Shown here one piece after another: positions 11,924 to 50,749 of a DNA stretch of 64,000 bases (position 1 is the stretch's first letter; each line of letters opens with the position of its first letter). The notes beneath the pieces are model-generated. The model saw nothing but the letters and a program-made list of their open reading frames with translations, had not been told where the DNA came from and ran no database searches. The stretch comes from Botryllus schlosseri (Eukaryota): assembly GCA_051294905.1 (NCBI GenBank), contig CM119373.1, positions 808,001 to 872,000 of the forward strand, read 5' to 3'. Position numbers and translations under genes: made by a program.

Positions 11924-12610
11924 TAGGGTACTCTCTGCAAGGCAATTTTCTGCGTCAGATGAGCTTATTGCCATGATTTGGAAAACCGTCTTTAGGCAGT
12001 CACGTGGCATGGTGGTCAATATTTCGGTCTGACGAAAGCTTTTCAATAATGCATTTTTTTGTCAGCCATCACAGAATATCCTAGTTTGAAAAGATAGAAT
12101 AAATCCGTGTTAGAGACGTAGTATCTATGTTTAGATTGTGCAGTTGTGCAGCATTCACATTTAGTTAGGACCCTTTGATGTCATGTCCGGCTGGATACAT
12201 TTCGTATAGTAGTTGGCGCGAATTTGTAGTGAGAGTAGAGCCGGGAAAGTTGTTTACCGTATTTTATTCGTAAGACATTGTGTCAACTTATTAAAGATTC
12301 AAATAGCTGGTTCGTGGTACAGAACTTGAATATAGCTTTCAATACAACATCCATTGTAGCAGTATATTTATTAAACTCGAAGACTTTTCGGGTGCCTCTT
12401 TTCAAGAGTTATCGGCACACTAAAGGGATTTAAACAGATTTAAAAGCAAAACCAAAAAGGCAAAGTATGACGCAACAATCAAAATCACAGACCATGAAAT
12501 TCGCATCGTATCAATGGCAACAATAACAAACTACGAAGTATACGGACATACGGTACTATAGTAGCAGCACAATTTGTAAATAAACAATTACACGCACGGA
12601 ACAACACGCA

Positions 12611-13060
12611 CTAATGAGAAATTTGTAGGTTATAGAGGAAATCTTTCTGTCTGCATAAAATAGGTTTGCTCAACTGAATAATGGTAGACTCCAACACTTT
12701 TAAATGAAACACAGACCTACCACGCGCAATGACAGTGAACATATTGTCATCATAGTGCTGTGCACAGGCAAGGTTTTCGCTCAGATGCTGACCGATTGAC
12801 GAAGCATATGCTTGGTAATCATCATAGCAATCTGTTTTTGCAGCCAATTTGCACTGACGTGCGAGCTCCGTGCGATCATTTGCGCATGTTTTTGACCGAA
12901 TCAATTTTGGGATATGCTGCTTAATACGCTCAAACAATCTTTGAGATGTACGTCCTACATACCTACTATCACAGTGGCACTTGTATTGGTAAACAACATT
13001 ACTTGCATCAAAGGCAGGAAGTACATCTTTTCGAGAGTTGGGTAACAAGGGTTTCGTCAT
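12611..13060 (-). pseudogene. Penelope GIY-YIG endonuclease, C-terminal fragment of the PLE ORF
   Basis: SNVVYQYKCHCDSRYVGRTSQRLFERIKQH...SSIGQHL...LKVLES...KPILCRQ; N-terminus lost at the inversion junction. Confidence 0.92.
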
Positions 13061-13116
13061 ACTTTGCCTTTTTGGTTTTGCTTTTAAATCTGTTTAAATC
13101 CCTTTAGTGTGCCGAT

Positions 13117-13153
13117 AACTCTTGAAAAGAGGCACCCGAAAAGTCTTCGAGTT
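13117..13153 (+). ncRNA. Putative minimal hammerhead ribozyme motif in the Penelope pLTR (second copy 12374-12410, minus strand)
   Basis: AACTC-TTGAAAA-GAGGCACCC-GAAA-AGTCTT-C-GAGTT: stem I AACTC/GAGTT, degenerate CUGANGA box, GAAA box, near-palindromic stem III, followed by AATAAA. Confidence 0.55.
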
Positions 13154-13332
13154 TAATAAATATACTGCTACAATGGATGTTGTATTGAAAGCTATATTAA
13201 AGATTCAAGAGACGCAGAGAAGGTTGTGCTTTGTCTTGCATTGAGTACGCGTTGAACGCTACCGGAAAGAAACCCTGTGAGACCTTGCATAAAGTAAATT
13301 GCCTGGGATCGCAATAGTAAACAACTTCAGAC

Positions 13333-13672
13333 ACTTGGCGGTAAAGAGTGGGCCAAGTGAAAACTGCTCTTACGGTACTTGGCGGTAAATAGTGGGCCAA
13401 GTAAACAACTAAGGCTGCTTGGCGGTAAACACTGGGCCAAGTAAACAACTCCAGACACTTGGCGGTAAAGACTGGGCCAAGTGAAACTACTCTTACGGGA
13501 CTTGGTGGTAAATACTAGGCCAAGTTACGGACTAAAGCCCCTGATAATAAACAACTACAGACACTTGGCGGTAAAGACTGGGCCAAGTGAACTGCTCTTA
13601 CGGTACTTGGCGGTAAATACTGGGCCAAGTTATTGTTAAAGGCGGTAAATACTGGGCCAAGTTATTGTTAAA
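13333..13672 (+). repeat. Array of eight ~26-bp hairpin repeats in the BEL 5' leader
   Basis: ACTTGGCGGTAAA(G/T/C)ACTGGGCCAAGT at about 13333, 13377, 13417, 13457, 13500, 13563, 13605 and (partial) 13641. Confidence 0.9.
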
Positions 13673-13692
13673 GAAGTATAGAAGACTGCATC

Positions 13693-15852
13693 ATGAATGA
13701 TACAGAAGAGTTATCTCATGTCGAACAACATGAAGAAGCCGGTACCCAAGCTGTACCGCTAGTGGATACAGAAACAAGACAGAGGATTCCCACAGAAAAG
13801 GGAAAGGATTTTAAAATACAGCAGTTACGTCAGAAACGTAAGTCAGCATTTTCTGTATGTAATAGATCTATCTGCAAACTGCAAGTCTCTATGGCGCATT
13901 CCGATTTGCATATTTGGAAAACCAATAAGGCTGACGTTGAAACTGACTTTGCGACTTGTACAGCAATCCACACTCAATTAGTTGACAGTCTGGAAGATGC
14001 GCAGGAAATTCATACTGCTATGATGTCATTTAATTCACTGCTCGAATGTTATAACAAAACAATGGCTCGCATTGAAGATGCCATACAACGTCTTGAAATG
14101 AAGGAAGACGATGCTATATCACTTGGAGAAAGTGCTAATAGCCGTGCACACTCTACTTCCTCCAGGAGGTCAGTAAGATCCAATAAGTCCCGTTCTTCAA
14201 TGGTGTTGAAGATTTCTGAAGCGGCTGCAGACAAAGCTGCCTGTGAAGCGGAACTATTGTATGTCGAAAAGGAGAATATGCTGCAAGCCAAGATATCAAG
14301 TAAGCAAACGGAAATGGAGGCCGAAATTGCCAAACAAAGAGAAATGGAGGCTGAAATTGCCAGACAAAGAGATAAATTAAAGGCAGATATGGAAGACACC
14401 AGAGCAAAAATGCAATTAGAACTGGACAAATTGAAGATTCAGAAAGAAAGAGCGAAGGCAGAAGCTAGAGAGAATGTTCTCGCTGAAGACCAGGAAAACA
14501 GATCCTTGAGTGGTCGAAGTAACTCAAGTAAGTTGCGTTATCATAATTCTAGTTTGATTCCGCACTCGATTGAACTGCAGCAGCCTACCACTGTTATATC
14601 GCCACAAACTGCTGCTCCTGTGTGTAACGTGTCAGTTGGCTCATTGCCTCAAAATCAACATAGTAACGCAAATCTATGTGTCAAGCCAAGAGTTGTATTA
14701 CCAGCAGAAGAGTTGAGTGTCTTTGATGGAACGATTCCTTTGAAATATCCAATTTGGAGAAGTCGATTTAGAGACTTGATTGAAAGTAATGTTTTCGAAG
14801 CTAGTCGAAGAATTAATTATCTCATGAATTATACTGCTGGAGAAGCAAGAGAATCCATTGAAGGATATATTATTGATGCCACTGATGAAAGCTACCTCGA
14901 AGCAATGGCAACTTTGGACAGATGGTATGGTGATAAATTGGCGATTTATCAAGAGTATATAAGACTAAAATTCAGAATTGGCCAGTTATTTCGACGAATG
15001 ACGGAGGCAAAAGCATTCGAAAATTTTCCAATTTCTTGAACAGTTGCAAGCGTCTCATACCGAAGGAAGGTACCCGACCTATGCTGGATGATGAGGAGTT
15101 GAATCAGAAATTGTCAATCAAACTTCCGAGAACTGTTAGAGAAGCCTGGTCTAGAAAGGTATTCGCTTACAAAGAGAGACGGAAGTTGACAATTGAGGAA
15201 GCTGCAGGAAAGGGCATGTCAGTACCTGACATACCTAGCTTTCCTCCATTCAAGATGTTCACCGAACACGTAGAAGAAGAAGCTTTCATTGCATCTCAAC
15301 CTGTTGTTGGGACCGCAGTTGGGATCAGATTGTTGCCGAGCAAAGGAAGAGTAACCCTCAGCAGAGCCGCAACAAATATGTTAAAGCAACACGAGCATTT
15401 ACCACAAATGTGAGTAATTCTGATAAAAATGAGCTGATAAAGGGTGACCGTGGTCATACAAAGCCATGCCTATTGTGCCAAAATCTACATTCAGTGGATG
15501 CATGCATTGAATTAAAAAACAAAGCTTATGAAGTAAAGATTGAATTCATTAAGAAAGAAGGATTTTATGCTTTCGATGCTTGAGACATGGACACATATCA
15601 CGGTTCTGTCGAAATCCTCTTCATTGTTCGATATGTGAGAAAAATCATCCGACGTCACTACACTCAAATAATTCAAGGTCGCAAAATGCTGCACGCAATG
15701 GGACGCAATCCTTGCAAACTGAAAGGGATAAACCAGATGGTATGAGAGCCACATGTTTGATGGCGTCTGCCACAAAAAGAGTTCGAACTACTAGAATAGT
15801 TCCAGTGTACGTTTTTCAAAGAGACAATCCTAGCGTGAAATTGAAGACTTAA
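13693..15852 (+). pseudogene. BEL/Pao Gag with frameshifts
   Basis: Coiled-coil region; LSVFDG...YPIWRSRF...NYLMNYTAGEARE; zinc knuckles (HGHISRFC, CSICEKNHPTSLH) across ORFs 13693..15039, 15036..15413 and 15580..15852. Confidence 0.9.
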
Positions 15853-18800
15853 TGTGCATTGGATGAGCACAGTGATGCCTGTTTCATTTCGGAAAACTTG
15901 TGTAAAGCGATGGATGTGAAAGGTATCGAAACCACGACCCGAGTTGATTGTCTGGGTACTGGAAGTACCTCAAAGGCATTGAAGGTTAAGTCGTTATTCA
16001 TCGAAAGTTTGGACTGTAACTCATTGGCCTTGCCAGCCTGCTATTCTCGTGAAGAGATTCCAGTCAATACAAAACAAATTGTGACACGAGAAATTGCATC
16101 GAGTGATCCAAGTTATGCTGAGATTTTGAAAGAATTACCAGAGTTCGATGGTAATATTGAAGTCGGACTTCTGTTGGGAACCGATTGTCCTAAGGCACTC
16201 AAGCCTACTGAAGTGATATCAAGTATGAAGTCTGATAGCTATGCTGTAAAAACTTTAATGGGCTGGAGCATAGTTGGATTGACATCAGGAGCAAGACAAC
16301 CTGATGAGCGATACTGTAATAGAATCCAGAGTCAAGAGATGACTGAAAGTAATTTGGTGCCATTGTACAGTACCAAAGAGATGATATCGCCTAAAGCAAT
16401 TGCTCAAAGTTTTGAACTTGATTTTTCTGAGTACAGGAAGAACTCGAATTCGTTCATGGGAGGTACATTTCCTGCGAATGAAATGATATCGGACAGAAAA
16501 TTCATGGAGAAATGTGAAAATAGTATCAAGTTCACTGAGCAAGGGCGTTACGAGTTGTCACTACCGTTTAAGAGTGACAACCCAATTATTACAGATAACA
16601 AGCCACTGGCATTGCAACGTTTGAAGAGTATCAAGAAGCGTATGAAGCAAGACGCTCAGTTCAAGATGCATTATTTTGAGTTTGTCAACAAACTGATAAA
16701 GAAAGGTCATGCTGTTCGAGTAGACAAGAATGACCATGGAATTGTTGGCAAGAAATGGTACTTGATACATCACGGAGTTTATCATCCGATGAAACCTGGA
16801 AAAATCAGAGTGGTGTATGATGGCAGCGCCAAGTTCCAAGGCGTTTCTCTGAATGATCTACTGCTTACTGGACCTTGCCTTACCAATAAGCTGATTGATG
16901 TATTGATGAGATTGCCTTACCAATAAGCTGATTGATGTATTGATGAGATTCCGTAAGGGAAGTTATTGTTGGACCGCAGATTTGGAGCAGATGTTTTATT
17001 CAGTGAATCTGTCTCCCAACCATCAAGACTTCTTCAGATTCCTGTTCTGGGAAAATGATATTGAAGGTGAACCCATCGCGTATAAAATGAACGTTCACAG
17101 CTTCGGAATATCCAGCAGTCCAGGCTGTAGCATCTTCGCGTTGATCAAGACTGCGCAAGAAAATACGAAGGAATTCGGAGACTCAATTGCTAAGGTAATA
17201 TTGAGCCATTCCTATGTTGACGATATTTTATGTAGTGGAGATGATATTGAAATGATGGCATCCTATGCCAAATTGACGAAGGACATGTGCAAACGTGGCG
17301 GCTTCAAACTAACAAAGTATGCTGCTAATCATCCGATGATTTTGAAACAAATTCCTACTGAGGAATGTTGTATTGAAGCGACAAACTTGGAAGGATAGCA
17401 TGCACCTCCTCCCATTTTGAGAACTCTTGGAGTTGAATGGTCAATAGAACATGACAGTTTCATGTTTCGCATAACTTTGAAGGACCGTCCATTCACAAGA
17501 CGAGGTATTTTGGCAACGGTTTCCAGTGTTTGGGATCCGCTGGGATTTCTCAGTCTTGTTTTGCTTGAAGGAAAACAGATATTGCAAGCACTTACAATCA
17601 TGATTGGGACGATGAAGTTCCAGAACAACTACGTCCAAGATGGGAAAAGTGGCGCATGGGATTACCAGAGTTGGCAGATCTTAAAATCAAAAGATGCTTT
17701 AAGCCTCAAGATTTTGGAGAGTTGAAGAAGGTGGAGCTTCACCACGTCAGTGATGCATCAAGTTATGCATATGGTCAGTGTTCTTATTTGAGATTGATTG
17801 ATGAGTATGACCGCATTCATTGCTCACTTGTAATGGCGAAAGCAAGAGTTGCACCATTGAAATCTGTGTCGATACCGAGACTAGAATTGACTGCAGCTTT
17901 GGTGTCTGCAAGAATCAGTACTATTCTCAAAGAAGAGCTTGAATATGAAAATGTGACTCAAGTATAGTGACAGTAAGTTCTTGGATACATATCAAATGAA
18001 TCAGAGAGATTTCACATTTATGTTGCTAATCGCGTGCAAGAGATTCGTGACAAGAGTGATCCGGGGAATTGGTATCACATTCAGTCAAAGTGCAATGTTG
18101 CAGATGAAGTATCTCGTGGCATGAATCCGTCTGAACTGACAGCAACTTGTCGATTTGTGAATGGACCGGAATTTTTGTGGAACGAGATTGAACTTGCCAA
18201 GAAGTTAAGAGCAAGTCAACAGTGAATTGGAACACAATGATCCCGAAGTGAGAAAAACGGTATTAAAGACAAAATGTCAGGAACAGCGCAACTTGTCAGA
18301 GTTGATGCTGAAGTTTTCAAGAATGGAAAAGGCCGTAAGATTTGTCATGGTTATGAAAAAAATTCGTGCAATATTTGAGAAGGAAGTCACCAGCTGTGAT
18401 TAAGCAACAGTTCGAAAGTAATTTCACTGTTAAAGATGCGCATGGTGCGAAAATTGAATTGATCAAGATGGCTCAAAGAGAAGCCTATCCTGAAGAAATT
18501 GAAGTTCTGGAAAGAAAACGCAATGTAAAGAGGAGCTCTCCTCTTTCTAAGCTGAAGCCATGTTTGGATGCTGATGGAGTGTTACGAGTTGGTGGTAGAT
18601 TAGATGCTGCCAATTTGTCTGAAGAATTGAAGCATCCTGTGATTTTGCCAAAATCACACCATGTTACGACTTTGATGATCAGAGATATTCATGAAAGAAC
18701 ACATCATCAAGGAAGAGGCATAACGCAGAATGCCATCAGAGAAAATGGTTATTGGATAGTTGGTGGAAGATCTTTTGTTTCCACAGTAATTGCAAATTGT

Positions 18801-19834
18801 GTGACATGCAAGAGACGGAGGGGAAAGTTCGTGGAGCAGCTTATGGCTGATCTTCCGTCCGATAGATCTGAAGTGGGACCTGCATTTTCGTTTTGTGCAT
18901 GCGATATATTTGGACCTTTCATCATCAAACAAGGAAGAAAGGAGCTAAAGAGGTATGGAGTTCTGTTTACTTGTCTTACTAGCAGAGCAGTAAGAATTGA
19001 AGTAGCTCCAAGTCTGGAGACTGACAGTTTCATAAATGTGTTGAGACGCTTTATATGTCGAAATGGACCAATCCGACAACTGAGATGTGATAGAGGATCT
19101 AATTTTATTGGAGCTTCAAGAGAGTTGAAGCAATCATTCGAATTGATGAACGAAAATAAAGTTTGTGAGTTTGTGATTATTTTCCATTCAAGTTTAATGT
19201 ACCCTTGGCTAGTTCACAAGGGGGAGTTTGGGAACGTCAAATCAGATCGATTCGTGCTGTACTAAACACGCTTCTTGTCAAGCATGGACAGCAATTGGAC
19301 GAAGATTCTTTGTCCACATTCATGGCTGAAGCTGAGGCTATCGTCAACTGCAGACCTTTGACTGTGGAGAATTTATCAAGCATTGATGGTCCGCTACCGT
19401 TGACACCTAATCATATACTTACTGGGAAGTCAAAGTTGGTTTTGTCTCCACCTGGATACTTCGGAAGACCTGATCTTTACGCGAGAAAGCGTTGAAGAAG
19501 AGTGCAACATTTGGCAAATGAATTTTGGCAACGATTTCGAAAGGAATTTTTGCAGAATTTGCAACTACGCAGCAAATGGAATGACACCAAGCGAAATCTT
19601 GAAATTGATTATATTGTGATCGTAGCTGACGACAGCGTGGCAAGAAATTTCTGGAAGTTGGGAAGAATCGTGAAGGTGTACCCTGATGAAGATAGTCATG
19701 TTCGCAAAGTTCAATGCAGAATGGCTAATCATGCATTGGATAACAGAGGGAGGCCTGTGACTGAGACTGTTTTGCTGGATCGACCGATCCAAAAATTGAT
19801 TTTGTACCTCAAGTCTGAGAACTATAGGGATTGA
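15853..19834 (+). pseudogene. BEL/Pao Pol (protease, RT, RNase H, integrase) with several stops and frameshifts
   Basis: LDEHSD...LLLGTD; WYLIHHGV...KIRVVYDGS; ADLEQMF; YVDD; HVSDAS...AKARVAP...IPRLEL; H-H-C-C; CDIFGP; RCDRGSNF; GGVWER. Confidence 0.95.
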
Positions 19835-22189
19835 TTCCCGACAAGGAGCCACTTTGTATATTGTGTTAGTTTCGTTTGAGTGTTTAGAAATGCAACATTT
19901 CTAGGGAAGCCATGTTAGAGACGTAGTATCTATGTTTAGATTGTGCAGTTGTGCATCATTCACATTTAGTTAGGACCCTTTGATGTCATGTCCGGCTGGA
20001 TACATTTCGTATAGTAGTTGGCGCGAATTTGTAGTGAGAGTAGAGCCAGGAAAGTTGTTTACCGTATTCTATTCGTAAGACATTGTGTCAACTTATTAAA
20101 GATTCAAGAGACGCAGAGAAGGTTGTGCTTTGTCTTGCATTGAGCACGCGTTGAACACTACCGGAAAGAAACCCTGTGAGACCTTGCATATAGTAATTTG
20201 CCTGGGATCGCAATAATCCGCATTTCTTTCCTTTTCTTCGGATAACATTTCCAAGACGCCAATATCTTCTTCGAAATGAGTGTGATCTGATAATATCTCT
20301 TTTTCACTAGCGGCTTAACACAGAAGTCTATTTACAAGAGAGCTGAAATATGGCCTTGAAGAAGTACTTGTGTTGTATTGCCAAAATCGAATTTGTATGT
20401 TCGCTCCGCGTGAAAACCTCAGATAAACATGCTGTACGTTATATATGAAGTCTTCTTCTGAAGGATAGGTTTCGTTGTGATATTGCTATGAGGGATCATT
20501 GCACAACTATTGTTATGGGGGATCATTGCACAACTAACTTCACTGCCACCAATGGAAATCGCACATGAGCCTTTTTTAATGCAAAGCCAGCATAGTGGAG
20601 TGTTGCACTTTCAAATCGTCCAACTTCATCCCCAACCAATTTTTTCTCTTTGCATACCACCAATTAAATCAATTCATCCAAGTGCTTGAGCAATTAGTCT
20701 TGTCGACCTCTGATCTGCTGCTTGGAGCATCGGTGTTGCTGAATCAGTTTGAAGGAATGTAACCTGACCTGCCTCATTTTGTTGGATGCCATATGAGGTT
20801 AAAGTGATCCGCTCATCAATATCTTTGACTATATCCTCCGTAGAAGCTTGACAAATATTGTCATTCACCTTATTCACAACACACTTAAGAATGGGTCCGT
20901 CTACTTTGTGCCTTTCAGCTACTAATCTATATGTCGCAGCTATTTCAACTATGTCGGATGTCGTTTATGTGCGCATGTACTACCAGCAATCAGCAGATGT
21001 GGTCAAACTCAAGTACTTTGATAGTGCCTTTCAGTAGTGCCAATTCAAGTAGTTACCCTCAACAGTTTCTCAAGTAGAAGTAATATGTACTTCAAACAGG
21101 AGAGGAGTGACGTGGAATTCGACTTGAAGGTGGTGTTTTTCGGTACAGCTCCTAAGTCTAGTAGAATCTACTTCCTCCTAAAAATACTATGCTAGTACTT
21201 CGGAAACTCAACAAATATACGCTCTCATTGACTGTCAAAATCTGGAAAATTCTGTTTACGGACGTAGTTGGTGGGTACGCACTGCAAAATCACACCAGGA
21301 ATAATCTAAAACCCTTCGGGACCTTTCCGATTAATTCGATCAAGCAAGCAATTCATTCATGGTTAAGGCTAGATCTGAACTATATATAATGCTTGGGAAC
21401 CTTTTTTGGTAAGTACTGATGGTTTTGAAGATCAAAGTTCAGCTCTGTTATTAGTAGCCTTACAATTAAACACCCACGGAATACACGATCTCCTTCTCTC
21501 GCGCCACATATCGACCATTTGCGAAAATATGCAATTCCATATCAACTAACGAAACTGATTTTAATTCATACATCAAAGTTTGTTCAGCAGAACCCTTAAT
21601 CACAGGCATTTGATGTGTTTGATGACAATTCGCGTATTACCTAGCTTACAAAAACCCCATCAAAGCAAAAAATGTGAGTAAATACTTTATTTATAATCGG
21701 TTGATACAGAAGTCATTTTATTATTTGGTAAAGTTACTCGAGGAATAAAGTTCAAGAAATCCTGCTAAACCTGTTCCTCACGCTCTCTGGTCATGCCGGT
21801 CCAATCCCAGTGCTGGATGACAAATTTGTCGCTGCAACTGATCTCTTGATACGGTCCAGTTAGATAGTTTAACTTCAAAAGTAACTGCTGTGTCCGAGGT
21901 ATTGATCAGTTTAGGAAATTTCTGAATTTTCATTTCAATTTATCGCTTTATTACATGCATTTGTACTCTTATTGGTACAAAATTGGTTTGTTAATTGTTG
22001 GTATTGGTCCGCAGAAGACATATTTTGCCATTTTCAAACTTTGTTTTTAACAAGTTGACAAAATGCCTTGCGACTCGAATGTTCAACGGCGGGCATTCTT
22101 CATTGCAACATGCAATAATTCCATTTCGAAGTTGCCCGAACTCGGCTTCCATGGCACTGTCGAGAAGACGGCAAGAACACGTGTTTCAG

Positions 22190-22440
22190 TAAACTGTATA
22201 TATCCTCTGCACTGAAATTCATGTGTTTGAATATTAGGATGGATCGTTCACCAACCAGTTCATTCAGTTCAGTTCCTTCTGATATATTTGGGAACACTGG
22301 CTTCTGGGGTAACATTGGCTGTTCGGAAAACAAATTATAAGCTTCATAAATTTTGTGCGCAATGATTTGTTTTTCTGCACTCTGGATCGTGTCGTCGCCC
22401 GTCGTAAAGTTATACTGCTGATAATCATGTAATTTGTCTC
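22190..22440 (-). mobile_element. hATm-like transposase C-terminal fragment
   Basis: ...AEKQIIAHKI...KPVFPNI...ELNELVGERSILIF resembles, from memory, the hATm C-terminal region. Confidence 0.4.
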
Positions 22441-22454
22441 TTGATTTTGAGCGA

Positions 22455-22687
22455 CAATGGTCTTATTTTCAAGCGATTTCAGTCTTAATTTTGAGACGAA
22501 GAGTTCTTAAAATGATTTTTTGTAAAAAAAAGTCTTATTTTCAAGCATTTTCGGTCTTAATTTTGAGACTAAAAATTCTTGTTAAGACCGATTTTAGTCT
22601 TTAAGACCGATTGTTCTTCAAGACATTTTTTCATAAAAAGTCACTTTAAGACAATAAGACCAAAATTGTCTTATTATTTTTGTAGTG
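22455..22687. mobile_element. One end of a CACTA/EnSpm-like non-autonomous element
   Basis: Ends TTTTGTAGTG (CACTACAAAA on the minus strand), with many AAGAC/GTCTT subterminal repeats. Confidence 0.55.
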
Positions 22688-22999
22688 TGAGTATATCCAT
22701 GAGGCCCTGAAAACCAAGATTATTGATAACAATGCTTTTCGAAGACAAAGCCACCAATGAAGAAATTGCAAAGGTTTTGACAAAATATTCTGAAGAAGAG
22801 ATCAAGACCAAGCCAATATGGAACTGCGTCTGTCGTGAAATTTACTCGAAAAAATGCTCGAAAATTCAGATGAGAAATCAATTTAGGAAAGTTCAAGAGA
22901 GAATACTAAGCAACATGCCGACAATTCTGAATATAAGAGCAAGTTTGTTGGAACGAGAGGTAAGTGATATTTCTCACTTTTCAAATTTGAACACTTTTT

Positions 23000-23280
23000 A
23001 AAATTTCAAATTTGCCAAATTCAAATCTGGCAAAAAACGAAAATTTTCAACTCAAGATCTAAATTGAAGTCTGCTAGCAATTCTATACTTATTCCGGACA
23101 TTTCAAAAGTATTCATTGTGGATTGCCTGACAGAAATGCATCGCAATATATTTTTCAAGGTCAGAAATCTGAAGCGTGAACTAGACTGACTACCTATGGA
23201 CAAAGAATGGCAAAGTTCTTCTAAGACTCAGTGCCCCAGTTCCAATTAAGAATGAAGAAGATCTTGAAAAGATGAAGTAA
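23000..23280 (+). pseudogene. CR1/L2-type LINE ORF1 C-terminal (FP25K-like) remnant
   Basis: KIFNSRSKLK...KVFIVDCLTEMHRNIFFKVRNLKRE / YLWTKNGKVLLR...IKNEEDLEKMK*, read across frameshifts. Confidence 0.75.
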
Positions 23281-23379
23281 TTTACAACGTCAGCCACCAC
23301 TGGTTCTGAACATGTAAGCCTACATTTAAATATGGCTTCTGACCACCCACAACAGGTCAACGCGATCAACTTGATATCT

Positions 23380-23900
23380 CAGACTTTGAATACGACAACG
23401 TATAAGATATCAGATTCAAGCTCTTGAACAATCGCTCGCGTACACTTATACATCCCCAGTATAATTGGTACCTCTGAAACCAGACTGCCAGAGTGACCCC
23501 CCCCCCCACCAATATACACCTAAATGGGTGTACATTTAATTTACTCCCCATCTCCCACCAGGGCAGGGGGTGTAAGCCTTGTATATAAAAACCTTTACGA
23601 TCCGATATAGTGGATTCTTATAGGCTAGATATTTCTGGCATTGACCAAGTATGGGTCCAAATTGACTCTACTATAACAAGCTTGGCTAACTAACTAGACC
23701 AACGGATATCATACATCTTATCTGACAAAGTACGCCTCTTTTGTACTATACTTCGTACTTTCCTCATTAACAAATTTTTCTACCTATATGCTTTGCATGC
23801 AATCCAGTTAACAACTTGTCTACAATAATATCACTATCTTCAACCTAAAACCCCTACCAGAAAGTTCTTTCCGACAATACATGATTACTCATATATTGAC
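23380..23900 (+). pseudogene. AP endonuclease (LINE-type) remnant
   Basis: PSIIGTSETRL, NIHLNGCTF, SPTRAGGVSL/YIK, LDISGIDQVWVQI and QPKTPTR occur in the expected order. Confidence 0.75.
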
Positions 23901-24009
23901 ACGAGGTATATGAGTAATCGATTGAATGAAACAACGCTGAAACCTTATTCATACCACAGATGATTCACAGCAACGGACAGGAACTTCACCTGGAACAAGA
24001 CACGTTCCT

Positions 24010-24540
24010 AACCCACTTCGTGCCAAGAGACGGGACATGCTTTTTCACGCTGTTGTTGATCAACTACAATTCGGACAAATTGCTAATTTATAGGATTCAA
24101 AGTCAATTAGGAAATATGCAAGCAAAGAAATTTATAACAACTGGGACCAACTGAAAGAATTTATAGAATACAACCAACAGGACGAATACTTGAAAAAGAT
24201 TGAAGAAGATGATTTTTACGCGGGCCACTTCCTGATACAGGCAACTGCATATTTTCTAAAAACAAACATTAAAATTTTTCAATTTACGGGTACCAGCACA
24301 CAGAATGATATATATTTGGCAGATATACCGATTCACCCACCCTCTCCCTTGCCCTACAAAACCTCCACTTCTGGAGCCTCCGCCCTTCCGCCTTAGCCAA
24401 CCAGACATCCTCACGCACCCTTGCGAAACCGACACCACTCCCCTTCTCACTGGTAAACCTAGCCGATCGGTTCCTGACCCTCCCGCATCCACCCTCACAT
24501 AACATTTGAGTGATGGCAACCCATAGCTATTTCGTCTTCT
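24010..24540 (+). pseudogene. OTU-like cysteine protease domain remnant
   Basis: VPRDGTCF/FHAVVDQL...SIRKYASKEI...EFIE...EYLKKIEEDDFYAGHFLIQATAYFLKTNIKIF; the DGxC catalytic box is visible, the His box is degraded. Confidence 0.75.
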
Positions 24541-24730
24541 ACCCTCTTGCTATCATAATTTTAAAAAGAAAACTATCAAAAAACTACTCGGAACTATCCA
24601 TACCCACTTCATTTCATTTCACTACTACTTACCTATTCCCGATACCGACATTACCATACCCTACCAACACAACTCCTTCGATATCTCCAACCCATCCCGT
24701 TTACTCTATATTACAAACCTAACCCAAAAT

Positions 24731-25870
24731 TTGAATTCGGCTCGTGAAAAACTCGACACTATACTAAATTATAAATATAAGAACCCAAAATTGTCCAGCA
24801 CATCAACTAAATTATTTACCCTCTACTACCAAGACATACATGACCTCCTCACTACCACACACCATAATCTAATTAATAAAAGTACCACGGAAGAATTCGA
24901 CAAACCTCGCACTGCTTTCCACAATTTCACAACATACACTCCGGACTCCGCTCTGTCTGATATCTTAGGTGTAGGCCCCTTCTTTATACCCACCCAACAA
25001 TTTCGATCCCACAATAAATTCAAAAATGAAGTCACCCGTGCAGTACTTAACTTACTTTTAAAAACCAACCCCCACATAGAGATTAGAGACCCCATTAGAA
25101 AACCCAAACCTTTCCTGAAACCCATTTCGCTCCCAATCTCCAAAATATTCAATTCGACCATATCCAAAGCTCATTCGCAATATACCCCAAGTCATGTTAG
25201 GGATGTCATATACTTTGGATAACTTAAATACCAATCATATAAAGCCAACATTTTCTAAAATCAGGAAGAACAAATTGAACGAATCGCAAGTAGAAGAGAC
25301 TTAGTTATTAATATTTCGGATAAAAATTTCGGTTTCTGCATCAATTCGACCAACTGGTACATTAATGAATCCGTTAGACAATTAGAACAGAACATTTACA
25401 CCCCTATTCAATTTTGCTTAGAAACAATGTTAGATAAGGCCCTCAGTGATAGGAAAACTATTACTGAGAAACGTGCAGAAACCTAAGGATCATTGAACGT
25501 TGCATTTTTAGAACTAAGGACCACATCCCTCTTTTCAACCTTTTACCCAAACCCCATAAATTGGGACTAGGACCATTCAATCATAAAGACGAACCAAAAC
25601 TTGAAGGCAGACCCATCATTTCGGTTCACTCTTGGATAACTGTAGAACCCGGCATAATAACCCACACCTACACCGGCATAATAACCACTGAACTCACCCG
25701 CTATCATCGAACATATTCGAAACCCCACTACCTCCAAAACACCATCCATCGATTTCGAAGACGACAAAAACATATTCGGCGCATTACCCAATAGAAAGAA
25801 ATTGAAACAATATTCAACAACCAATGAGGAACAAGAAAGTCAAGAAGAAATTTATCACTCCGTGGAAATA
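24731..25870 (+). pseudogene. Penelope-like reverse transcriptase remnant with the central core deleted
   Basis: HNFT...LSDILGVGPFFIPT; DLVINISDKNFG...WYINESVRQL; THK...GRPIISVHSWIT; then directly the thumb-like HNNP/HTYTGIITTELTRYHRTYS. No YxDD and no GIY-YIG seen. Confidence 0.75.
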
Positions 25871-26245
25871 AAATTGAACTATATATACCATATTGAACAT
25901 TTTTTTCAAATAAGTTTCACATCATATACGATTTAACCACTAGTGCAACATACCGTATTACTTGATATTTCTAGATACCGTATCCATTTCATAATGCTTT
26001 TTTCAAATATATAATATTATTTTCTGTATACCATGCCTAGAATAATAACCAACTTTGTATAGCAGGGAATTTAGAACCTCAGGCTATATAGACGTTACTT
26101 ATAGACGTTACTATTACCATACATCTGTTTTTCTTCACATTTAGACATTAGTTATTGCTATTTACGTTTTTATTGTTACTCTTTCTTGTTAATATATGTT
26201 CCTATACACAGAGTCGACTCTTTCTTGTGAATATACACCGTTTCC

Positions 26246-26370
26246 GTTTACCTAGGCTCCTCGCCACCTCATCCGCGTCAGCGGTGTCTTACAAAAGCCT
26301 AGAGATGGGCCGTGCTAAAAGTCGGCAGTTACGGAAAATAAGAAGAGTAATTGGCCTGGTGTAAATGACC
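26246..26370. repeat. ~125-bp dispersed repeat; inverted second copy at 35440-35566
   Basis: GTTTACCTAGGCTCC...GCCTGGTGTAAATGACC aligns end to end with the reverse complement of 35440-35566. Confidence 0.9.
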
Positions 26371-26656
26371 ATACTCAGGTAGCACGCCTACTTGGGTACC
26401 ACAAGGTATCAAGATGACATGAATTGTGATAACCAGGTGGGGAAACCAATCGGTACCCGTACCTTTTTTGGCCCCATATTACAGAGGTATTTTATGGGGA
26501 ACCATGTGGGTAACCCACTAAGCTGGTAGCGAAGACAATATTACGACCCTGGTCCTTGTAGCAGTGCCAGTAGCAGTGACAGTGTAAGTGGGCCGAGAAT
26601 TCGACGTAGACGATTATCGATAAACCCTACACGTTAGCTAACTTTAACATTGTATA

Positions 26657-28015
26657 CAGGGTTGCCATACCGTCCTTATTTCTAAGATTTGTCCTTATTT
26701 TGGAGGGCCACGTCTTAGAAAACTCGACTGTCCTTATTTCTAAGAAATGTCCTTATTTTCGACTTGCGTCCTTATTTTGTCTTATTTTAAACCTCTACAG
26801 AACTTCGATAGTTTTCCTCTGGTATCTGTGTTGCATAATATTCTCAAATTAAGCTTTTGCGTCGAGATTTTATGACATCATAAATGAAAGGAACTCTCCT
26901 GACGTTCACACCACAAGATTTGTTTTCTAAGTGGTGAGATGGGTAGGGCATGCAGTTAGTGATAGCAGTTTTGTCTGTACCAAACTACCGCAGCGGACGT
27001 CAATTTAGCAGTAAACAGCAGTACCAGGTTCCTGCTGCTTGGTCTACAGCAGAATAAGCTCAAGCTGTGGGGAAGGCAGCATTTATTGCGTAGTGAAAAA
27101 TGCGCAGTGCTGTCGACACATTGTTTAAAAAGTAGTAAAGCTATAATTCATTGATAAATTTATCTAAATTCTATTGCACCTGCGCATATATTTTTAGCTA
27201 CTAATAAAGCTAAATCTGATGAGTTAAAATGAGCAGGCGAACATTTTTCGTGACGATTATTAGAGAGAATTCAAAGGCATATAACTAACCTTGAAGGGCG
27301 AGTGTTTCGCACATTGCAATATCTGCAAAGCTGCAATTGTGACATTAACGTGGAGGCCATATGAAAGGCCGCTATTCCAACTCACATTGATACCCCAAAA
27401 CATAAAAAGTATGTCATAATGATTATTTTAAGCCAGTCGGTGAATAATTACTACAAGGCAGCTGCTGCTGAGAGTACCATGGGCATTCCATACTGTCAAA
27501 CACCAGCAATCATTCCTCGCCAACGATTGCACATCGCAATTGTTCAAAGCAATATTCCCCGATCCCAATACCGCAAATAAGTTTTCATCGGCCAGGACCA
27601 CGACTACCAGCATTGTTACGGGAGTTCTCGCTCCATATGCTCAAGAAATGATTTTGTCTCAACTTGGTGTACGGCCTTTTCCCATCTTGGTTGACGCCTC
27701 TAATCACAACGAGTCGAAGAAGTTTGGTTATCACCCTATGGGGAGGCCCAAAAACCAGCGTTTTTTTGGGGTGGGGGGCTGACGAAGTGCTGTTACGGCC
27801 CTTAGTAAAGGTAAACTTAGACCTGGGCTGTTGCGAGATCCATGAAGCACTTTCTAATAACAAGGAGTTGCTGGAGCAGATTGTTTCTGGCGAAAAGTAT
27901 GGAATATAATATGCCACGGCTCGTATAAATACAAAGTATGTACAAAAACGCTCTTTCATGCTAATCAAATTTCTCGACTGTCCTTACTTTTGGGTCCTTG
28001 TCGATGGCAACCCTG
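26657..28015 (+). mobile_element. Internally deleted hAT (hAT5-like) element
   Basis: TIR CAGGGTTGCCAT/ATGGCAACCCTG; GTCCTTATTT subterminal repeats; transposase pieces WAFHTVKHQQSF...NDC...LFKAIFPD...ILVDASNH and a C-terminal piece. No clear TSD. Confidence 0.8.
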
Positions 28016-29707: not shown

Positions 29708-32304
29708 CAGTGGTTCCCAACCTTTTATTTCCCGTGGCCCCCTTGCACAGGCTTCTACCGCTGGTGGCTCCCTGCTTACCACGAAAAAAGATTTGTTTGA
29801 ACGTGCTTGCGTTTATTATTTTAATGCCATCTTTGATGGTGTTCAAAAGCAAACAAAACAAAACGAAATAAGTCAACGAAAGTTAATTGACCATCAATGC
29901 GAGATTTGCTTTTGGGATCGTCTGACGAGGGTCTTTATATTTGGCTCAGTCTTTGACACAGCAAGACGAATGTCACTGCCAACATCGAGACGGTTTCTAG
30001 ATTTTGTTTTGATGGTAGCCAGATCAGAAAACCCAGATTCACAAAGATAGGTTGTGGCAAATTGAACGAGCAGTACAGAAGCTTTCTTGCTGAGTAGCGG
30101 ATATGAATCGAAAAGAGACATCTAGAAACTGGCAAAATCTTCTTTGTTTTCAAAAACCAATTTTAGCGCATTTGAAACCTGTAGTTCTGCCAGTTCCTCT
30201 GCCTCTTCTTCAATAGGGTCAATTTCGGTGTTGAACGGGTCTTTGTACCACGGAATATGCACACGTATTTTGGGAAAATAATATTCATACTCAGCAGAGA
30301 CGATTCTCAGGTGCTCAGAGATGCAAGTTTGGATGTCCACGGGTGACTCAACATTTTAATTTCCAGGTATTGGCTTAACAGAGGGAACGAGGAAGTTAAG
30401 CGTACCTTGATTCGTGCTCCCCAAACTCCAATTCGAGCGCATATTCCAGCTAGTTTATCTTGAACGTCACCGACTGTTACATCACGGCCTTGTAGGGAAA
30501 GGCTCATTTCATTTAAGCACCCAAATGCATCTGCCAAATACGCCAGTATCATGACAAACTCTTCATTTTGAAAGTGGGCGTGGAGATTGTTTTTGTTTTC
30601 TTGCAGAAAGATTTCCACCTCAACACGGAGTTCATATAGCCGTGAGAGACATTTCCCTCTGGATAGCCATCGAACATTTGTATAAAATAGGAGCCGAACA
30701 TGTTCAGCTCCCATTTCTTTGGTAAGAATTTGAAAGAGTCTGTGGTTTTTGGCCCTCGCACGTATGAAGTTAATCACTTTTACCGCGTCGTCCATAACTT
30801 TCATCAAACTGGGAGGTAGAGTTTTTGATGCAAGAGCGTACCGACGTAATGAGCAGTGCGAGGACGTCACGTGGGGCCATTCTTTCTTCACAAGCGTGAC
30901 GAACCCCCCTTTGACACCAACCATCGCTGGAGCACCATCCGTAGATATATGTTTGAAATTTTGCCAGCCGAGTCCATTCGCTTCGAAAAACGAGTTCACT
31001 ATAGTCTTCACATCTACTGCGGTGGTGGTGCCTGGCATGGCCATTGCAAAACAAGAATTCTTCTTTTATCTTTCCCTCTTTTTATAGCGAGCAAAGGCAA
31101 TCAAGTGATTTTCCAGAGCGCAATTAGTAGATTCGTCCAGCTGAAGGCTAGCCTGAATCTTGCTTTGTTTGATTTCAGAGCAAACTTGCTGACATACATT
31201 AACAGCCATATCATCAATGCGTCGGCGAATCGTATTATTTGAAAGAGAAATCTGCTGAATCTTTTTCTTTTCTGCAGGTCCTATCAGTAGTTCTACCATT
31301 TTCTCCGCACATGGCTTGATAAGGTCCTCGGCTATAGTGTGCGGCTTCTTGCACCTTGCAATCCGATATGCCACTTCATAGCTACATTGAAGAGCTGGCT
31401 TTTCCTCCGGCAGGAATCCGAAATGGTTTAGTGTTGCTTCACGGTCGAATCGTACTCGCTTAGCAGCCAAAGCATCGTTGCCAATGTCATTTCTCCGCGG
31501 ATGATTCTTGTCGTGGTGGTTTCTGAGTTTGGATGGACGTAATAACGCATTGGACATAACATACGAGCAATGCATACATTGCGCGCATTCTAGGCGATCT
31601 CGGAGAACTTTTGTAAAGCCGAAAGTAACATAACTTTCTTTCCATTTTCGAACTTGAGGCATTTTGAATTTAAAATTTACGGTAATATCTATTTGAGTCT
31701 AAAATAGGCTAGGTTTGACCGTTGGCTCTCTATACTTGATATGAAAAGATTCAATTCCGTTATTTTGAGCTCCTGAGAACGAGACTAGTAGCTGCATTTT
31801 CTTGACGTAGCCTAATACAACTATACCGGGATACCGGCATTACTGATTTATCACGTACGGCATACCACATGATTTTCATACCGGCATACCGCCCACCCCA
31901 CACATGCAGAACAACACACAGGTATCGTACCAACCCCTTACTCCCGACAGAGAGTGATAGAGAAACTACAACTAGCTAGCCTGCTGGGGAGGTACAACCG
32001 TCTCTCCCGACCTCGTCTTCGTTATCTGCATGCCAGATTCAGCCATCTCTGATCCTCGACTGTACCACAATTGTGATGTCATATTTGAAACTTCACGCGT
32101 TAGCGTAACAGCGGCGTACGAAGCACCCACTGTGATGCAGTGGTTCCGATCATACGCAGCAGACTGCACGACACCGAAGAAATAGCACGAATTCAAAACC
32201 GTCAAACGGAAAAGTTGGTGAAAAATCTTTCCTTATCGTGGCCCCCCCTGCAACTGTCTCGTGGCTCCCCAAGGGGGCCACCGGCCCCCGGTTGGGAACC
32301 ACTG
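29708..32304 (-). mobile_element. Near-complete Buster/Charlie-type hAT transposon
   Basis: 15-bp TIR CAGTGGTTCCCAACC; perfect TSD ATATAGAT with central TA (29700-29707, 32305-32312). Confidence 0.97.
29894..31662 (-). pseudogene. Buster-type transposase (ZBED5/SCAND3-like), frameshifted
   Basis: BED finger CMHC...LRNHHDKNH; KPHTIAEDLI; SLQLDEST; STDGAPAMVG; VRWLSRG; FATTYLCESGFS, across ORFs 31066..31662, 30307..31044, 30122..30340 and 29894..30121. Confidence 0.95.
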
Positions 32305-34983: not shown

Positions 34984-36785
34984 TAGGGTTGCATTTAAAA
35001 CAAACGGTGTTTTAAAACACTTTGTTCAAAACATGCTTTAAACCAGAGGTCTCAAACACGCGGGCCGCATGCGGCCCGCCAGAGCATTCTGTGCGGCCCG
35101 CCACCACATTTTCGATTTTTATTAATTTGACAAGATATAAGTGTCACACATATATTTTCAGGTTATAAAGTGAAAATTCCCTTTAAAATTGCTCCGAAAG
35201 CCTTAAACTATTCATCAAACTTCACTATCACATCAATTGCAAATGCTACCATGCAGTGGAACATTCACTATTTCGTCCGGACCCTTGAACGATTCTAGAC
35301 TGAAATTTGTGAGTTGGACTTGGACGCGACCTTTCTTAGAATTACTCAGACTCGGGCTAACTCGATGGCAAAATGAAAATGACTTGAGTGGACTTTGTTT
35401 GTTTGTTTTTGGGTATTGATGGTGTTTGTCGACTGCTAAGGTCATTTACACCAGGCCGATATTCTTCTTATTTTCCGTAACTGCCGACTTATAGCACGGT
35501 CCGCCTCTAGGCTTTTGTAAGACACCGCTGACGCGGATGAGGTGGCGAGAAGGAGCCTAGGTAAACCTCCAACACTTAGGTATCGGAGTGGACTGGTAAA
35601 CCTCCAACACTTAGGTATCGGAGTGGACTTGAAGTGACTCGGAATGCCGTACATTTGTTAGAACCATGGACGCAACAAAGTAATCGCGTATCAGGGGAAT
35701 AGTAATAGATCAGAAGGTCGCAGCTTGGTATTTCGCTATAAGCAAGTATAGTTATGGCAACCATTGGCAATTTTTGGTCGCTAAATCATGTTATTAAGGC
35801 CGCTTAGAAGTACCGAGTACCGTAGTGGTACGCTCCAACGATGTAACAGCAATGGGCCGATCGGCGTTCCGACATTTCAATCACTAGGACACATTCATTA
35901 ATATATTTATATCATATTTATATTTTTTTCTGCTCCTATATTTGAAGATATTTGTCCATGAGATTAATAGCCTACTTATCAGAAGTATACACGAATCCTG
36001 GATTGGAATTATAATGCTCAACTTAAAAATGTTTTGATATATGATCAGTCTCTATTATCAGTCTGTTGGATTCAAAATATTTATAGTAGCTGAAAATTAT
36101 AACCTGATAGCTTTTATGATGGCATCATACATTTGTCCGCCCATATGTGTCTATATCTTATAGTTAATATGTATCAAGTACAACAACAATTCTATTCAAA
36201 TAGTTATAAATGTGATGATTCTTTTCATGCCAGGCCTAAATTGATACAAACGTAAATCACATTTTGCCGATGTGTGTTTACTGTCAGTCTGCTGGATCGG
36301 CTCACTTTCAATAGGAAAATTCATTCCCGCCAAATAAGGCCTACTTGGAAAGACATAGAATACCCATATAAATGCTGCGGCCCGCGGCGTCGTCAAAACT
36401 GGAAAAATGGCCCGCGAGCACATTTGAGTTTGAGACCTCTGCTTTAAACAGTGTTTTAAACAAAGGCCTTTTGAAAAAAAAATTTCAAGTTGTAAAATTA
36501 TGCCATAATTGTGTAAATACTTTCCAAAAACATGTTGTATGAGCCTACGGACGATCACCACCCTATATAGCCGACTAATATCGATATGGGATGGCTGGAA
36601 CCCTCAAAATAGTCGGTTTAACAGCAACAGTACAGATATTTCGACAAAGGAGCTATATTTACACTATATTTTCAACTGTCAATGTCAATCCAATATGACG
36701 TCACAATTGAATATTCTTGACGTCATGGCTTGAATAAAACATTAAGGGCCTTGTTTTAAACATGTTTGTTTTAAATGCAACCCTA
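34984..36785. mobile_element. hAT MITE (outer element of a nest)
   Basis: TIR TAGGGTTGCATTTAAAACAAAC; perfect 8-bp TSD CTCCATGG (34976-34983, 36786-36793). Confidence 0.92.
35044..36441. mobile_element. Buster-type MITE nested in 34984-36785
   Basis: TIR CAGAGGTCTCAAAC; perfect TSD CTTTAAAC; GCGGCCCG subterminal motifs. Confidence 0.92.
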
Positions 36786-49809: not shown

Positions 49810-50615
49810 GTCGTAAGATGAGGTGGTGGGGTTGCAGTTGCATGTGTGGGATGAGGTGGTGGGGTTGCAGTTGCATGTGCGGGGTTAGAATTGGGGTGGC
49901 AGGGTTGCGGTTGCATGTGTGGGGTTAGAATTGGGGTGTAGGCACGCGTGGGGAGAGGATTAGGGTGTCGTAAGATGAGGTTGCATATGTGGGGTTAGGA
50001 TTGGGGTGTAGGTACGCGTGGGGTTAGGATTAGGATGTCGTAAGATGAGGTGGTGGGGTTGCAGTTGCATGTGTGGGGTTAGAATTGGGGTGTAGGCACG
50101 CGTGGGGTGAGGATTAGGGTGTCGTAAGATGAGGTTGCATGTGTGGGGTTAGGATTGGGGTGTAGGCACGCGTGGGGTGAGGATTAGGGTGTCGTAAGAT
50201 GAGGTTGCATGTGTGGGGTTAGGATTAGGGTGTCGTAAGATGAGGTGGTGGGGTTGCAGTTGCATGTGCGGGGTTAGGATAGGGGTTGCATGTGTGGGGT
50301 TAGAATTGGGGTGTCGGCACGCGTGGGGTGAGGATTAGGGTGTCGTAAGATGATGTTGCATGTGTGGGGTTAGGATTGGGGTGTCGGAACGCGTTGGGTT
50401 AGGATTAGGGTGTCGTAAGATGAGGTAGTGGGGTTGCAGTTGCATGTGTGGGGTGAGGTGGTGGGTTGCAGTTGCATGTACGGGGTTAGGATAGGGGTGG
50501 CAGGGTTGCGGTTGCATGTGTGGGGTTAGGATTGGGGTGTCGGCACGCGTGGGGTTAGGATTAGGGTGTCGTAAGATGAGGTGGTGGGGGTGTCATAGGA
50601 ATGGGTTGGGGTTTA
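49810..50615. repeat. G-rich, telomere-like minisatellite (~70-bp mosaic unit)
   Basis: Repeats of GGGGTTAGGATTAGGGTGTCGTAAGATGAGGT and TGCATGTGTGGGGTTAG(G/A)ATTGGGGTGTAGGCACGCGT. Confidence 0.92.
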
Positions 50616-50749
50616 GGCTGAGGCTCATCCAACCCTAATTTCACGATATCAAGAATACAAAATGGTCATGGGGAACATTGCTTTTTGATGTTCATGTGGT
50701 TGTACGTGGACCCGGTGGAAATTCCGTATCATAGGTAAAGCTTACTTAC

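What the first reader, a model, noticed from the sequence alone, without database searches (positions are those of the whole stretch)
23000..25870. Possible chimeric retroelement: LINE-type ORF1 + AP endonuclease + OTU protease + Penelope-type RT
Seen: four decayed modules on the same strand in order: ORF1 C-terminus (WTKNGK), APE (IIGTSETRL, AGGV, PTR), OTU (DGTCF/FHAV) and PLE RT (SDKNFG...WY...RQL, GRPII, ELTRY). They share an A/C-rich composition, and I saw no TSD or terminus between them. Known: Penelope-like RTs pair with GIY-YIG or lack an endonuclease; APE pairs with LINE RTs; LINEs usually lose the 5' end, yet here the 5' half survives with no LINE RT. Inference: this may be a dead copy of a family in which a PLE RT was joined to LINE ORF1-APE and a deubiquitinase-like domain. 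I do not know of a described family with this architecture. Chance adjacency of two elements remains possible.
Basis: partly seen in the sequence, partly recalled or inferred. Interest (0 to 1): 0.8.

Follow-up and report, generated by a model that had tools for sequence, protein, structure and literature searches.

The report
OTU-Penelope retroelement with LINE front half
This is a dead copy of a repeated Penelope-like jumping gene whose telomerase-like reverse transcriptase is fused to a ubiquitin-removing (OTU-type) protease domain, and which likely also carries the front half of a LINE that would supply the DNA-nicking enzyme its closest relatives lack, a pairing we did not find described.

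Summary
Largely confirmed. The OTU domain (Pfam E 2e-8) and the Penelope-like RT are one gene. An intact 960-aa relative (P0004) is colinear with the window from the Met at 23960, 66% identical, has no GIY-YIG, and its model matches telomerases best. The window copy lacks the RT catalytic core. Its six closest relatives lack OTU and any recognised endonuclease. Upstream lie a LINE-type ORF1 end (Pfam above cut-off) and an AP-endonuclease-like stretch: the front half beats 98-100 of 100 shuffles, the catalytic back half is weak. High-depth contigs cross from the back half into OTU in all three DNA runs laid, so that join is repeated. The ORF1/front-half link is unsettled: its depth matches OTU in two runs, but is nearly absent in the third. 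A single APE-OTU-RT protein is unlikely, since four stops precede the OTU Met, which overlaps a stop (ATGA). Best reading (0.45): one family with LINE ORF1 and APE as separate upstream frames. Rivals: passenger relic (0.25), chance neighbour (0.25). OTU-RT fusion about 0.97.

The parts
23014..23280 (+). 3' end of a LINE-type ORF1, frameshifted and cut off at its 5' side; FP-type C-terminal domain at 23191-23277, stop at 23278
   Evidence: PF25298 E 1.8e-5, above cut-off. X6 record 17 matches from 23014 and runs on for 473 nt unlike the window (placing that loose part upstream is my reading of the record coordinates).
23440..23705 (+). Front half of an AP-endonuclease-like domain in three frames: E of ETRL at 23476, AGGV at 23563, W of QVWV at 23652, YRP-like motif at 23684-23701
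   Evidence: Profile of 22 LINE APEs: reached by 0-2 of 100 shuffles. A G-x-L-x-R-P motif sits at the canonical distance behind the W motif, chance 0.00055 (post hoc).
23706..23963 (+). Probable back half of the APE, degenerate (no GDFN; PTR 23853, SYID 23889, SYH 23949), or a non-coding leader derived from it; its frame ends in TGA 23961-23963 overlapping the OTU ATG
   Evidence: Order and spacing by eye. Profile score at chance; reached by 3 of 100 shuffles in a narrower post hoc test. Held by high-depth contigs that run into OTU.
23960..24380 (+). OTU-like cysteine protease domain at the start of the main ORF; Cys codon at 24038, His codon at 24366, Trp in the usual third triad position
   Evidence: PF02338 E 2e-8; 64% identical to P0004 1-140, whose OTU scores E 9e-11. 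The residue roles are recalled from OTU motifs.
24381..25654 (+). N-terminal extension and front part of the Penelope-like RT (SDKNFG at 25316, GRPII), colinear with P0004 141-582
   Evidence: 62% and 70% identity to P0004 in a frameshift-aware alignment; tblastn E 1e-147.
25655..25872 (+). C-terminal remnant behind a deletion of about 235 codons (RT motifs A to E and more), with a second deletion near 25755; ends like P0004, with no GIY-YIG
   Evidence: X5 record 16 and X6 record 23 leave the window exactly at 25654.
25873..26245 (+). 3' untranslated region of the family; its true end is hidden by a very high-copy repeat that starts at 26246
   Evidence: X6 depth 552 and 315 in these bins against 41.5 at 22905-23045. 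No Rfam hammerhead and no telomeric run.

Best explanation
This is a dead, 5'-truncated and internally deleted copy of a repeated Penelope-like retroelement whose main gene is an OTU protease domain fused to a telomerase-like RT without GIY-YIG, and which likely captured the 5' half of a CR1/L2-group LINE as separate upstream frames, so that the LINE AP endonuclease would make the nick that primes the Penelope-type RT. SHOWN: OTU and RT form one ORF (P0004); the RT is closest in fold to TERT; the stretch from 23818 through OTU into RT sits in high-depth contigs of three samples; the OTU frame has four stops in the 90 nt before its ATG. INFERRED: one RNA carries ORF1, APE and OTU-RT; ORF1 packages the RNA; OTU-RT is made by stop-restart at the ATGA overlap; the APE nicks DNA and the RT copies the RNA from the 3' end, often stopping early (hence more RT than OTU copies); OTU strips ubiquitin from the element's proteins or from chromatin at the insertion site. 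The OTU-RT fusion alone is about 0.97 likely. A family that includes ORF1 and the APE front half, working or not, is about 0.7.
For: P0004: OTU 23-114 plus full RT, starts at the Met equal to window 23960 and ends like the window. Model of P0004: the top 11 structural matches are telomerases, Z 15.6-18.1 (best: rmsd 4.3 over 325 residues), against Z 13.0-13.3 for LINE-1 ORF2p. It groups with six RTs (SH-aLRT 100, quick tree of 24 rows) with no Pfam OTU or GIY-YIG (P0033 judged by its cluster representative P0019). Their four loci show no APE or OTU. So the lineage has no recognised nuclease, and such elements are generally restricted to chromosome ends (PMC8557442, abstract and introduction). 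Junction contigs: X5 record 11, 23818-24339, depth 12.1 against 2-3 for window-like records; an X6 contig about 23867-24209, depth 144.7 against 36-50 for low-depth records; X3 record 3, 23923-24180; an X3 contig joining 23715 to 23929. X6 record 18 (depth 248.5) crosses from the ORF1 end to 23453. Mean depth of APE front: APE back: OTU is 277:253:279 in X6 and 43:53:55 in X3. The YRP-like motif lies just 3' of the suspected seam at 23679, at the canonical spacing from the W motif 5' of it, so the APE reads across the seam. No rest of a LINE ORF2 lies downstream: 18 reference ORF2s hit only the RTE at 59-60.5 kb. The APE-like stretch shares the RT's C skew (0.27; 1 of 22 LINE APEs reach it). 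AUGA overlaps are a known stop-restart form, and the LINE SART1 uses UAAUG coupling (PMC5972666, passages).
Against: In X5 the 12-14x path begins at about 23679, and 23046-23609 has only 2.7-6x: OTU-RT copies without the ORF1/APE front half, unless the tool's filter removed a contig. Depth steps up in the bin 23610-23750 in all three DNA runs. No multi-copy contig among the rows shown crosses 23453-23818. The front part differs more from its nearest high-depth contig (31 of 375) than the rest does (106 of 1956; Fisher p 0.04; different runs, and the first alignment has 48 gap letters). The catalytic back half is at or near chance and GDFN is missing, although the window is only 5-8% from the family. 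X6 depth falls from 244 at 23802 to 145 at 23873, so some copies may continue into other sequence. No APE-bearing protein was among the 52 fetched or the 19 hits. Summed contig depth is not a copy number.
Confidence: 0.45

Rival explanations
1. The chimera is real and repeated, but the LINE part is a passenger. A template jump or recombination once joined a LINE 5' piece to an endonuclease-less OTU-PLE; the APE decayed into a leader (perhaps still giving a promoter or ORF1), and copies insert at existing breaks or use a nuclease in trans.
For: The back half of the APE is degenerate, with no GDFN. X6 has no depth at 23860 and X5 record 11 is 12 nt shorter than the window with 14 gap letters, which points to an indel of about 11 nt near the PTR motif in the family (inferred). 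The relatives live without any recognised endonuclease.
Against: Motif order and spacing survive from ETRL to SYH. The inferred 11-nt difference need not break the family's frame (removing 10-12 nt there scores slightly higher, 9.7-10.2 against 8.1). A dead 700-nt passenger would not be kept at the same depth as OTU in two samples unless the copies are young.
Confidence: 0.25
2. Chance neighbours: an OTU-PLE whose 5' end is near 23679 lies directly behind an older LINE fragment (23014-23678), and only this locus has the join.
For: X5's family path starts at 23679 with no multi-copy front half; depth steps up there in all three runs; the front part is more diverged (p 0.04); the ORF1 piece lacks the C skew; profile support for the APE ends at 23672.
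Against: A YRP-like motif lies 3' of the seam at the right spacing (chance 0.00055, post hoc). No LINE remainder lies downstream. Depth parity in X6 and X3. A small indel at 23678 would also clip alignments there.
Confidence: 0.25
3. One long ORF2 polyprotein APE-OTU-RT (about 1,250 aa) behind ORF1, as in a LINE whose RT was swapped for a PLE RT.
For: X5 record 11 is a net 12 nt shorter than the window, a multiple of three, across the junction; the SYH motif abuts the OTU Met as an APE-ending SDH motif would.
Against: Four stops in the OTU frame between 23871 and 23960; P0004 starts at this Met; X3 record 3 has one gap only over 23923-24180, which the OTU frameshift at 24042 accounts for; no longer form among proteins of 528-1680 aa.
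Confidence: 0.05

Closest known systems
Endonuclease-deficient Penelope-like elements (Athena, Coprina; Terminons), as described in PMC8557442 (abstract, sections 3 and 12) and PMC6431247 (passages)
   Same: TERT-like RT, no GIY-YIG, extra ORFs possible; it groups with six marine-type RTs lacking a recognised nuclease.
   Different: N-terminal OTU fused to the RT; LINE-type ORF1 and an APE-like stretch upstream; no hammerhead or telomeric run found in this copy. The clade could not be named, because no labelled Athena or Coprina sequence was in the tree.
Endonuclease-bearing PLEs (Penelope/Poseidon, Neptune, Nematis, Hydra, Naiad, Chlamys; PMC8557442)
   Same: Same RT class; interspersed, 3'-biased copies; Chlamys elements carry accessory domains such as PHD and SAP.
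   Different: No GIY-YIG at either end of P0004; the GIY-YIG-bearing hits P0038 and P0040 fall outside its clade. The word OTU does not occur in that paper's main text.
CR1/L2-group LINEs (ORF1 plus APE-RT ORF2)
   Same: ORF1 end followed by an APE-like front half that aligns to APEs of such LINEs.
   Different: No LINE RT follows; the RT is PLE-type and in a separate frame; no poly(A) tail or TSD seen.
Helentrons and Ginger1 transposons (PMC4067079, PMC6431247, PMC2836005; passages)
   Same: Mobile elements that carry OTU proteases; Helentrons also carry an AP endonuclease.
   Different: They are DNA transposons: the APE is fused behind Rep/Helicase, or OTU behind a DDE transposase; neither has an RT.

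Membership tests
Penelope-like elements (PLE) | RT closest to telomerase RT rather than to LINE RT | tested here: met
   Top 11 structural matches of the P0004 model are TERTs (Z 15.6-18.1), LINE-1 ORF2p Z 13.0-13.3; sequence hits include GIY-YIG-bearing PLE RTs.
Penelope-like elements (PLE) | Pseudo-LTRs, tandem or inverted terminal structure | tested here: inconclusive
   No terminal repeat in 22200-27500, but this copy is truncated and its 3' end is masked by another repeat.
EN-plus PLEs | GIY-YIG endonuclease at the N- or C-terminus of the RT ORF | tested here: not met
   No GIY-YIG in P0004 at E up to 0.1, while P0038, P0040 and P0043 score; the window ends with the same C-terminus as P0004.
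EN-minus PLEs (Athena, Coprina) | RT ORF without GIY-YIG | tested here: met
EN-minus PLEs (Athena, Coprina) | Hammerhead ribozyme and reverse-complement telomeric repeats at the 3' end; telomeric location | tested here: inconclusive
   No Rfam hammerhead in 22000-27500 or in L001-L003; one isolated TTAGGG, inside the ORF; the true 3' end is not visible. An earlier unchecked note places another finding 4.2 Mb beyond the window's end on the same piece.
EN-minus PLEs (Athena, Coprina) | Placement inside a named clade in an RT tree | not testable with these tools
   No labelled reference RTs were at hand; the tree has unnamed rows only.
CR1/L2-group LINE | ORF1 upstream of the endonuclease | tested here: met
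   PF25298 above cut-off at 23191-23277; its link to LINE ORF1 is recalled, and not seen in the 14 reference stretches scanned.
CR1/L2-group LINE | AP endonuclease with full catalytic motif set | tested here: inconclusive
   Front half supported, back half at or near chance, GDFN missing in this dead copy; intact copies not seen.
CR1/L2-group LINE | LINE-type RT in the same ORF as the APE | tested here: not met
   18 LINE ORF2 references find nothing at this locus; the RT here is PLE-type and its frame has four stops before the Met.
Helentron | Rep/Helicase with the APE fused at its C-terminus | tested here: not met
   The APE-like stretch follows an ORF1 end and precedes OTU-RT; Pfam scans of the pieces gave no Rep or helicase. 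No dedicated RepHel profile was run.

The most novel reading that the evidence does not exclude
A new superfamily of retroelements: a telomerase-related RT from an endonuclease-less lineage recruited the ORF1 and AP endonuclease of a LINE and an OTU deubiquitinase, and so gained genome-wide target-primed insertion. It would be the first pairing of a PLE RT with an AP endonuclease, and would show that the two halves of the LINE machinery are exchangeable between retroelement classes.
Probability: 0.3. Interest if true: 0.88.

Novelty: new variant of a known kind. Interest (0 to 1): 0.66.

Why it matters
Retroelement classes are defined by which endonuclease goes with which RT: AP or restriction-like enzymes with LINEs, GIY-YIG or none with PLEs (PMC8557442, introduction; PMC5718144, passages). 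A PLE RT that works with a LINE AP endonuclease would break that rule, and would show how a chromosome-end-type RT can become an interspersed one. It is testable with the host assembly and a nicking assay. Even in the cautious reading, the intact OTU-RT gene adds a retroelement to the DNA transposons known to carry OTU proteases, and it marks an unnamed branch of endonuclease-less PLE RTs in marine data.

Tried and rejected
No RNA holder listed. One bulk RNA run, about 6 in 100 of it read, gave depth 0-1.8 over the element and 0 over 24456-26147; not used as evidence. Protein searches that found nothing: window RT piece against longer proteins; P0004 OTU against shorter proteins; RT alignment against viral and prokaryotic contigs; PDB by sequence. 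A WTKNGK pattern in viral contigs gave 46 loci, none LINE-like by a motif check; two APE patterns there gave none. The RTE APE of this window as a single reference scored at chance; local alignment and hmmsearch with the 22-APE profile also did, with low power (the window's own RTE APE reached only E 0.0014). Of 41 loci, 23 passed the frame and length filter and one more was dropped, leaving 22. Atlas look-alikes of P0004 scored under 0.9 (rotifer-rich RT clusters), and its OTU part matched OTU clusters at 0.91-0.94 without naming a donor; leads only. The model of P0004 has pLDDT under 50 for residues 1-194, so the OTU fold was not tested. The careful tree did not finish; the quick tree is quoted. 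Nested insertion into a LINE whose 3' part lies downstream: rejected within the window. Helentron origin: rejected on domain order. Not-in-print claims rest on ten searches of an open-access library; Repbase, Dfam and subscription journals were not searched, and no supplements were read (the consensus files of PMC8557442 may hold this clade).

Full report
1. What is there. OTU scores E 2e-8. The WTKNGK piece scores just above the cut-off of PF25298. The RT piece finds 23 proteins at E up to 0.001, with one close one, P0004 (E 7.6e-70).

2. OTU and RT are one gene. P0004 is an uninterrupted 960-aa protein from a 3,669-nt contig, alone in its cluster. It has OTU at 23-114 and a full RT with catalytic motifs, and no GIY-YIG. 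A frameshift-aware alignment lays it on the window from its first Met (23960) to its last residues (25872): 630 codons, 66% identical, 11 frameshifts, 6 stops, and a deletion of about residues 583-817 at 25654/25655 that removes the catalytic core. The window copy is therefore dead. The model of P0004 (pLDDT 67.8; residues 1-194 unreliable) matches telomerases best: the top 11 rows, Z 15.6-18.1, against 13.0-13.3 for LINE-1 ORF2p. In a quick tree of 24 RTs it forms a group (SH-aLRT 100) with six RTs of 658-756 aa that have neither OTU nor GIY-YIG by Pfam (one judged by its cluster representative). Four loci of such relatives show no APE or OTU, although only two have more than 1 kb upstream. 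So the OTU is a lineage-specific gain on an endonuclease-less PLE branch.

3. Is the upstream stretch an AP endonuclease? Pfam, PDB, single-reference and local-profile tests gave nothing. I built a profile from 22 LINE APEs found as animal-type contigs in prokaryotic assemblies (five of five checked carry Exo_endo_phos, four also RVT_1). The whole profile gave z 4.2, 3.4 and 2.3 against shuffles under three settings, with 1, 4 and 10 of 362 tiles as high. Split afterwards, the front half was reached by 0, 0 and 2 of 100 shuffles, the middle by 13, 4 and 1, the C-end by 25, 37 and 16. A YRP-like motif lies at the canonical distance behind the W motif (chance 0.00055, post hoc). GDFN is absent. 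An APE origin is thus well supported for 23440-23705 and weakly for 23706-23960; catalytic competence in intact copies is unseen.

4. Are the joins repeated? With no genome held, I laid one RNA run and three DNA runs of three samples at 80% likeness. High-depth contigs cross from the back half into OTU: X5 record 11 (23818-24339; depth 12.1 against 2-3 for window-like records), an X6 contig (about 23867-24209; 144.7 against 36-50) and X3 record 3 (23923-24180). In X5 five contigs of depth 11-13 chain with 30-nt overlaps from 23818 to 25654, where the last leaves the window at the deletion point, as X6 record 23 does. X6 record 18 (depth 248.5) crosses from the ORF1 end to 23453. RT depth is 2.8 times (X6) and 4.5 times (X3) OTU depth and flat in X5, which fits 5' truncation. 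The open point is 23453-23818. Front half, back half and OTU have like depth in X6 (277, 253, 279) and X3 (43, 53, 55), but not in X5 (3.5, 18, 20), where the family path starts at about 23679. The tool warns that a hole proves nothing and that summed depth is no copy number. The front part is also more diverged from its nearest high-depth contig (31 of 375 against 106 of 1956; p 0.04). Against a mere neighbour stand the APE motif spacing across 23679, the lack of any LINE remainder downstream and the C skew that the APE-like stretch shares with the RT.

5. Frames. The OTU frame has four stops between 23871 and its ATG, and P0004 starts at that ATG. The frame with SYID and SYH ends in a TGA that overlaps it (ATGA, 23960-23963). 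AUGA overlaps are a known stop-restart arrangement, and the LINE SART1 couples its ORFs through UAAUG (PMC5972666, passages). That this overlap is used here is inference from one dead copy.

6. Mechanism. Most likely (0.45) one RNA encodes ORF1, an APE and OTU-RT; the APE nicks, the PLE RT primes on the nick and copies from the 3' end, ORF1 packages the RNA and OTU removes ubiquitin. Every functional step is inferred. The reason to prefer a working APE is that endonuclease-less PLEs are generally restricted to chromosome ends (PMC8557442), whereas this family appears repeated, 3'-biased and without telomeric repeats in this copy. Rivals: passenger relic (0.25), chance neighbour at 23679 (0.25), single polyprotein (0.05).

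7. Comparison and novelty. PMC8557442 (abstract, passages, sections 3 and 12) pairs PLE RTs with GIY-YIG or nothing and AP endonucleases with LINEs; PMC5718144 (passages) names AP endonuclease as the lasting partner of non-LTR elements. OTU is known in Ginger1 and Helitron/Helentron DNA transposons (PMC2836005, PMC4067079, PMC6431247; passages). Ten searches gave no paper with a PLE carrying OTU or APE; Repbase and supplements were not seen. Earlier unchecked scan notes describe OTU in a Chlamys-like PLE and a LINE-type ORF1 in a Naiad-like PLE, so each capture may recur; none combined them with an APE. It works like a PLE, meets the RT criterion, fails the GIY-YIG criterion of EN-plus clades and fails the RT criterion of LINEs. 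Verdict: new variant of a known kind, interest 0.66; 0.3 chance of a new RT-endonuclease pairing worth 0.88.

Noticed in passing
window 58407-60711: RTE-like LINE whose APE and RT front (59258-60711) lie on + while the RT's C-terminal part (58407-59240) lies on -, like an insertion with an inverted 5' part (the clade name is by eye).
   Followed up: partly
window 13195-20215: BEL/Pao-like LTR element by eye from its ORFs, with 122-nt direct repeats 97% alike at 13195 and 20094, and a 201-nt repeat at 12102 and 19907.
   Followed up: no
window 12325-13202: A 160-aa frame on - that looks by eye like the GIY-YIG end of a separate Penelope element, between 152-nt inverted arms 99% alike; no Pfam hit.
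   Followed up: partly
window 25649-25686: At the RT-core deletion a 14-nt direct repeat (25649-25662 and 25673-25686) suggests repair by microhomology or templated insertion.
   Followed up: no
window 26246-26373: Very high-copy short repeat (second copy at 35437-35566; contig depth above 80,000 in X3; covered by RNA reads on both strands) that hides the element's 3' end.
   Followed up: partly
window 22700-22965: A 96-codon open stretch ending at a splice-donor-like site, just upstream of the element; no Pfam hit; a separate repeat by depth.
   Followed up: partly
window 49810-50621: G-rich tandem array of 29-154-nt units with TTAGGA-like words.
   Followed up: no
window 30307-31698: Broken hAT-like transposase on - (DDE_Tnp_1_4 E 0.0014, below cut-off).
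   Followed up: no
L001 1-127 and 6733-6859; L002 2338-2745; L003 4707-4784: Relatives' loci: L001 has identical 127-nt ends (circular assembly or tandem unit); L002 has three units of about 150 nt behind the RT with no Rfam match; L003 ends in CCCTAA-like repeats.
   Followed up: partly
L051-L091: Many prokaryotic assemblies hold contigs with animal-type LINE APE-RT genes, probably host contamination (23 of 41 pattern matches had an open APE frame).
   Followed up: partly
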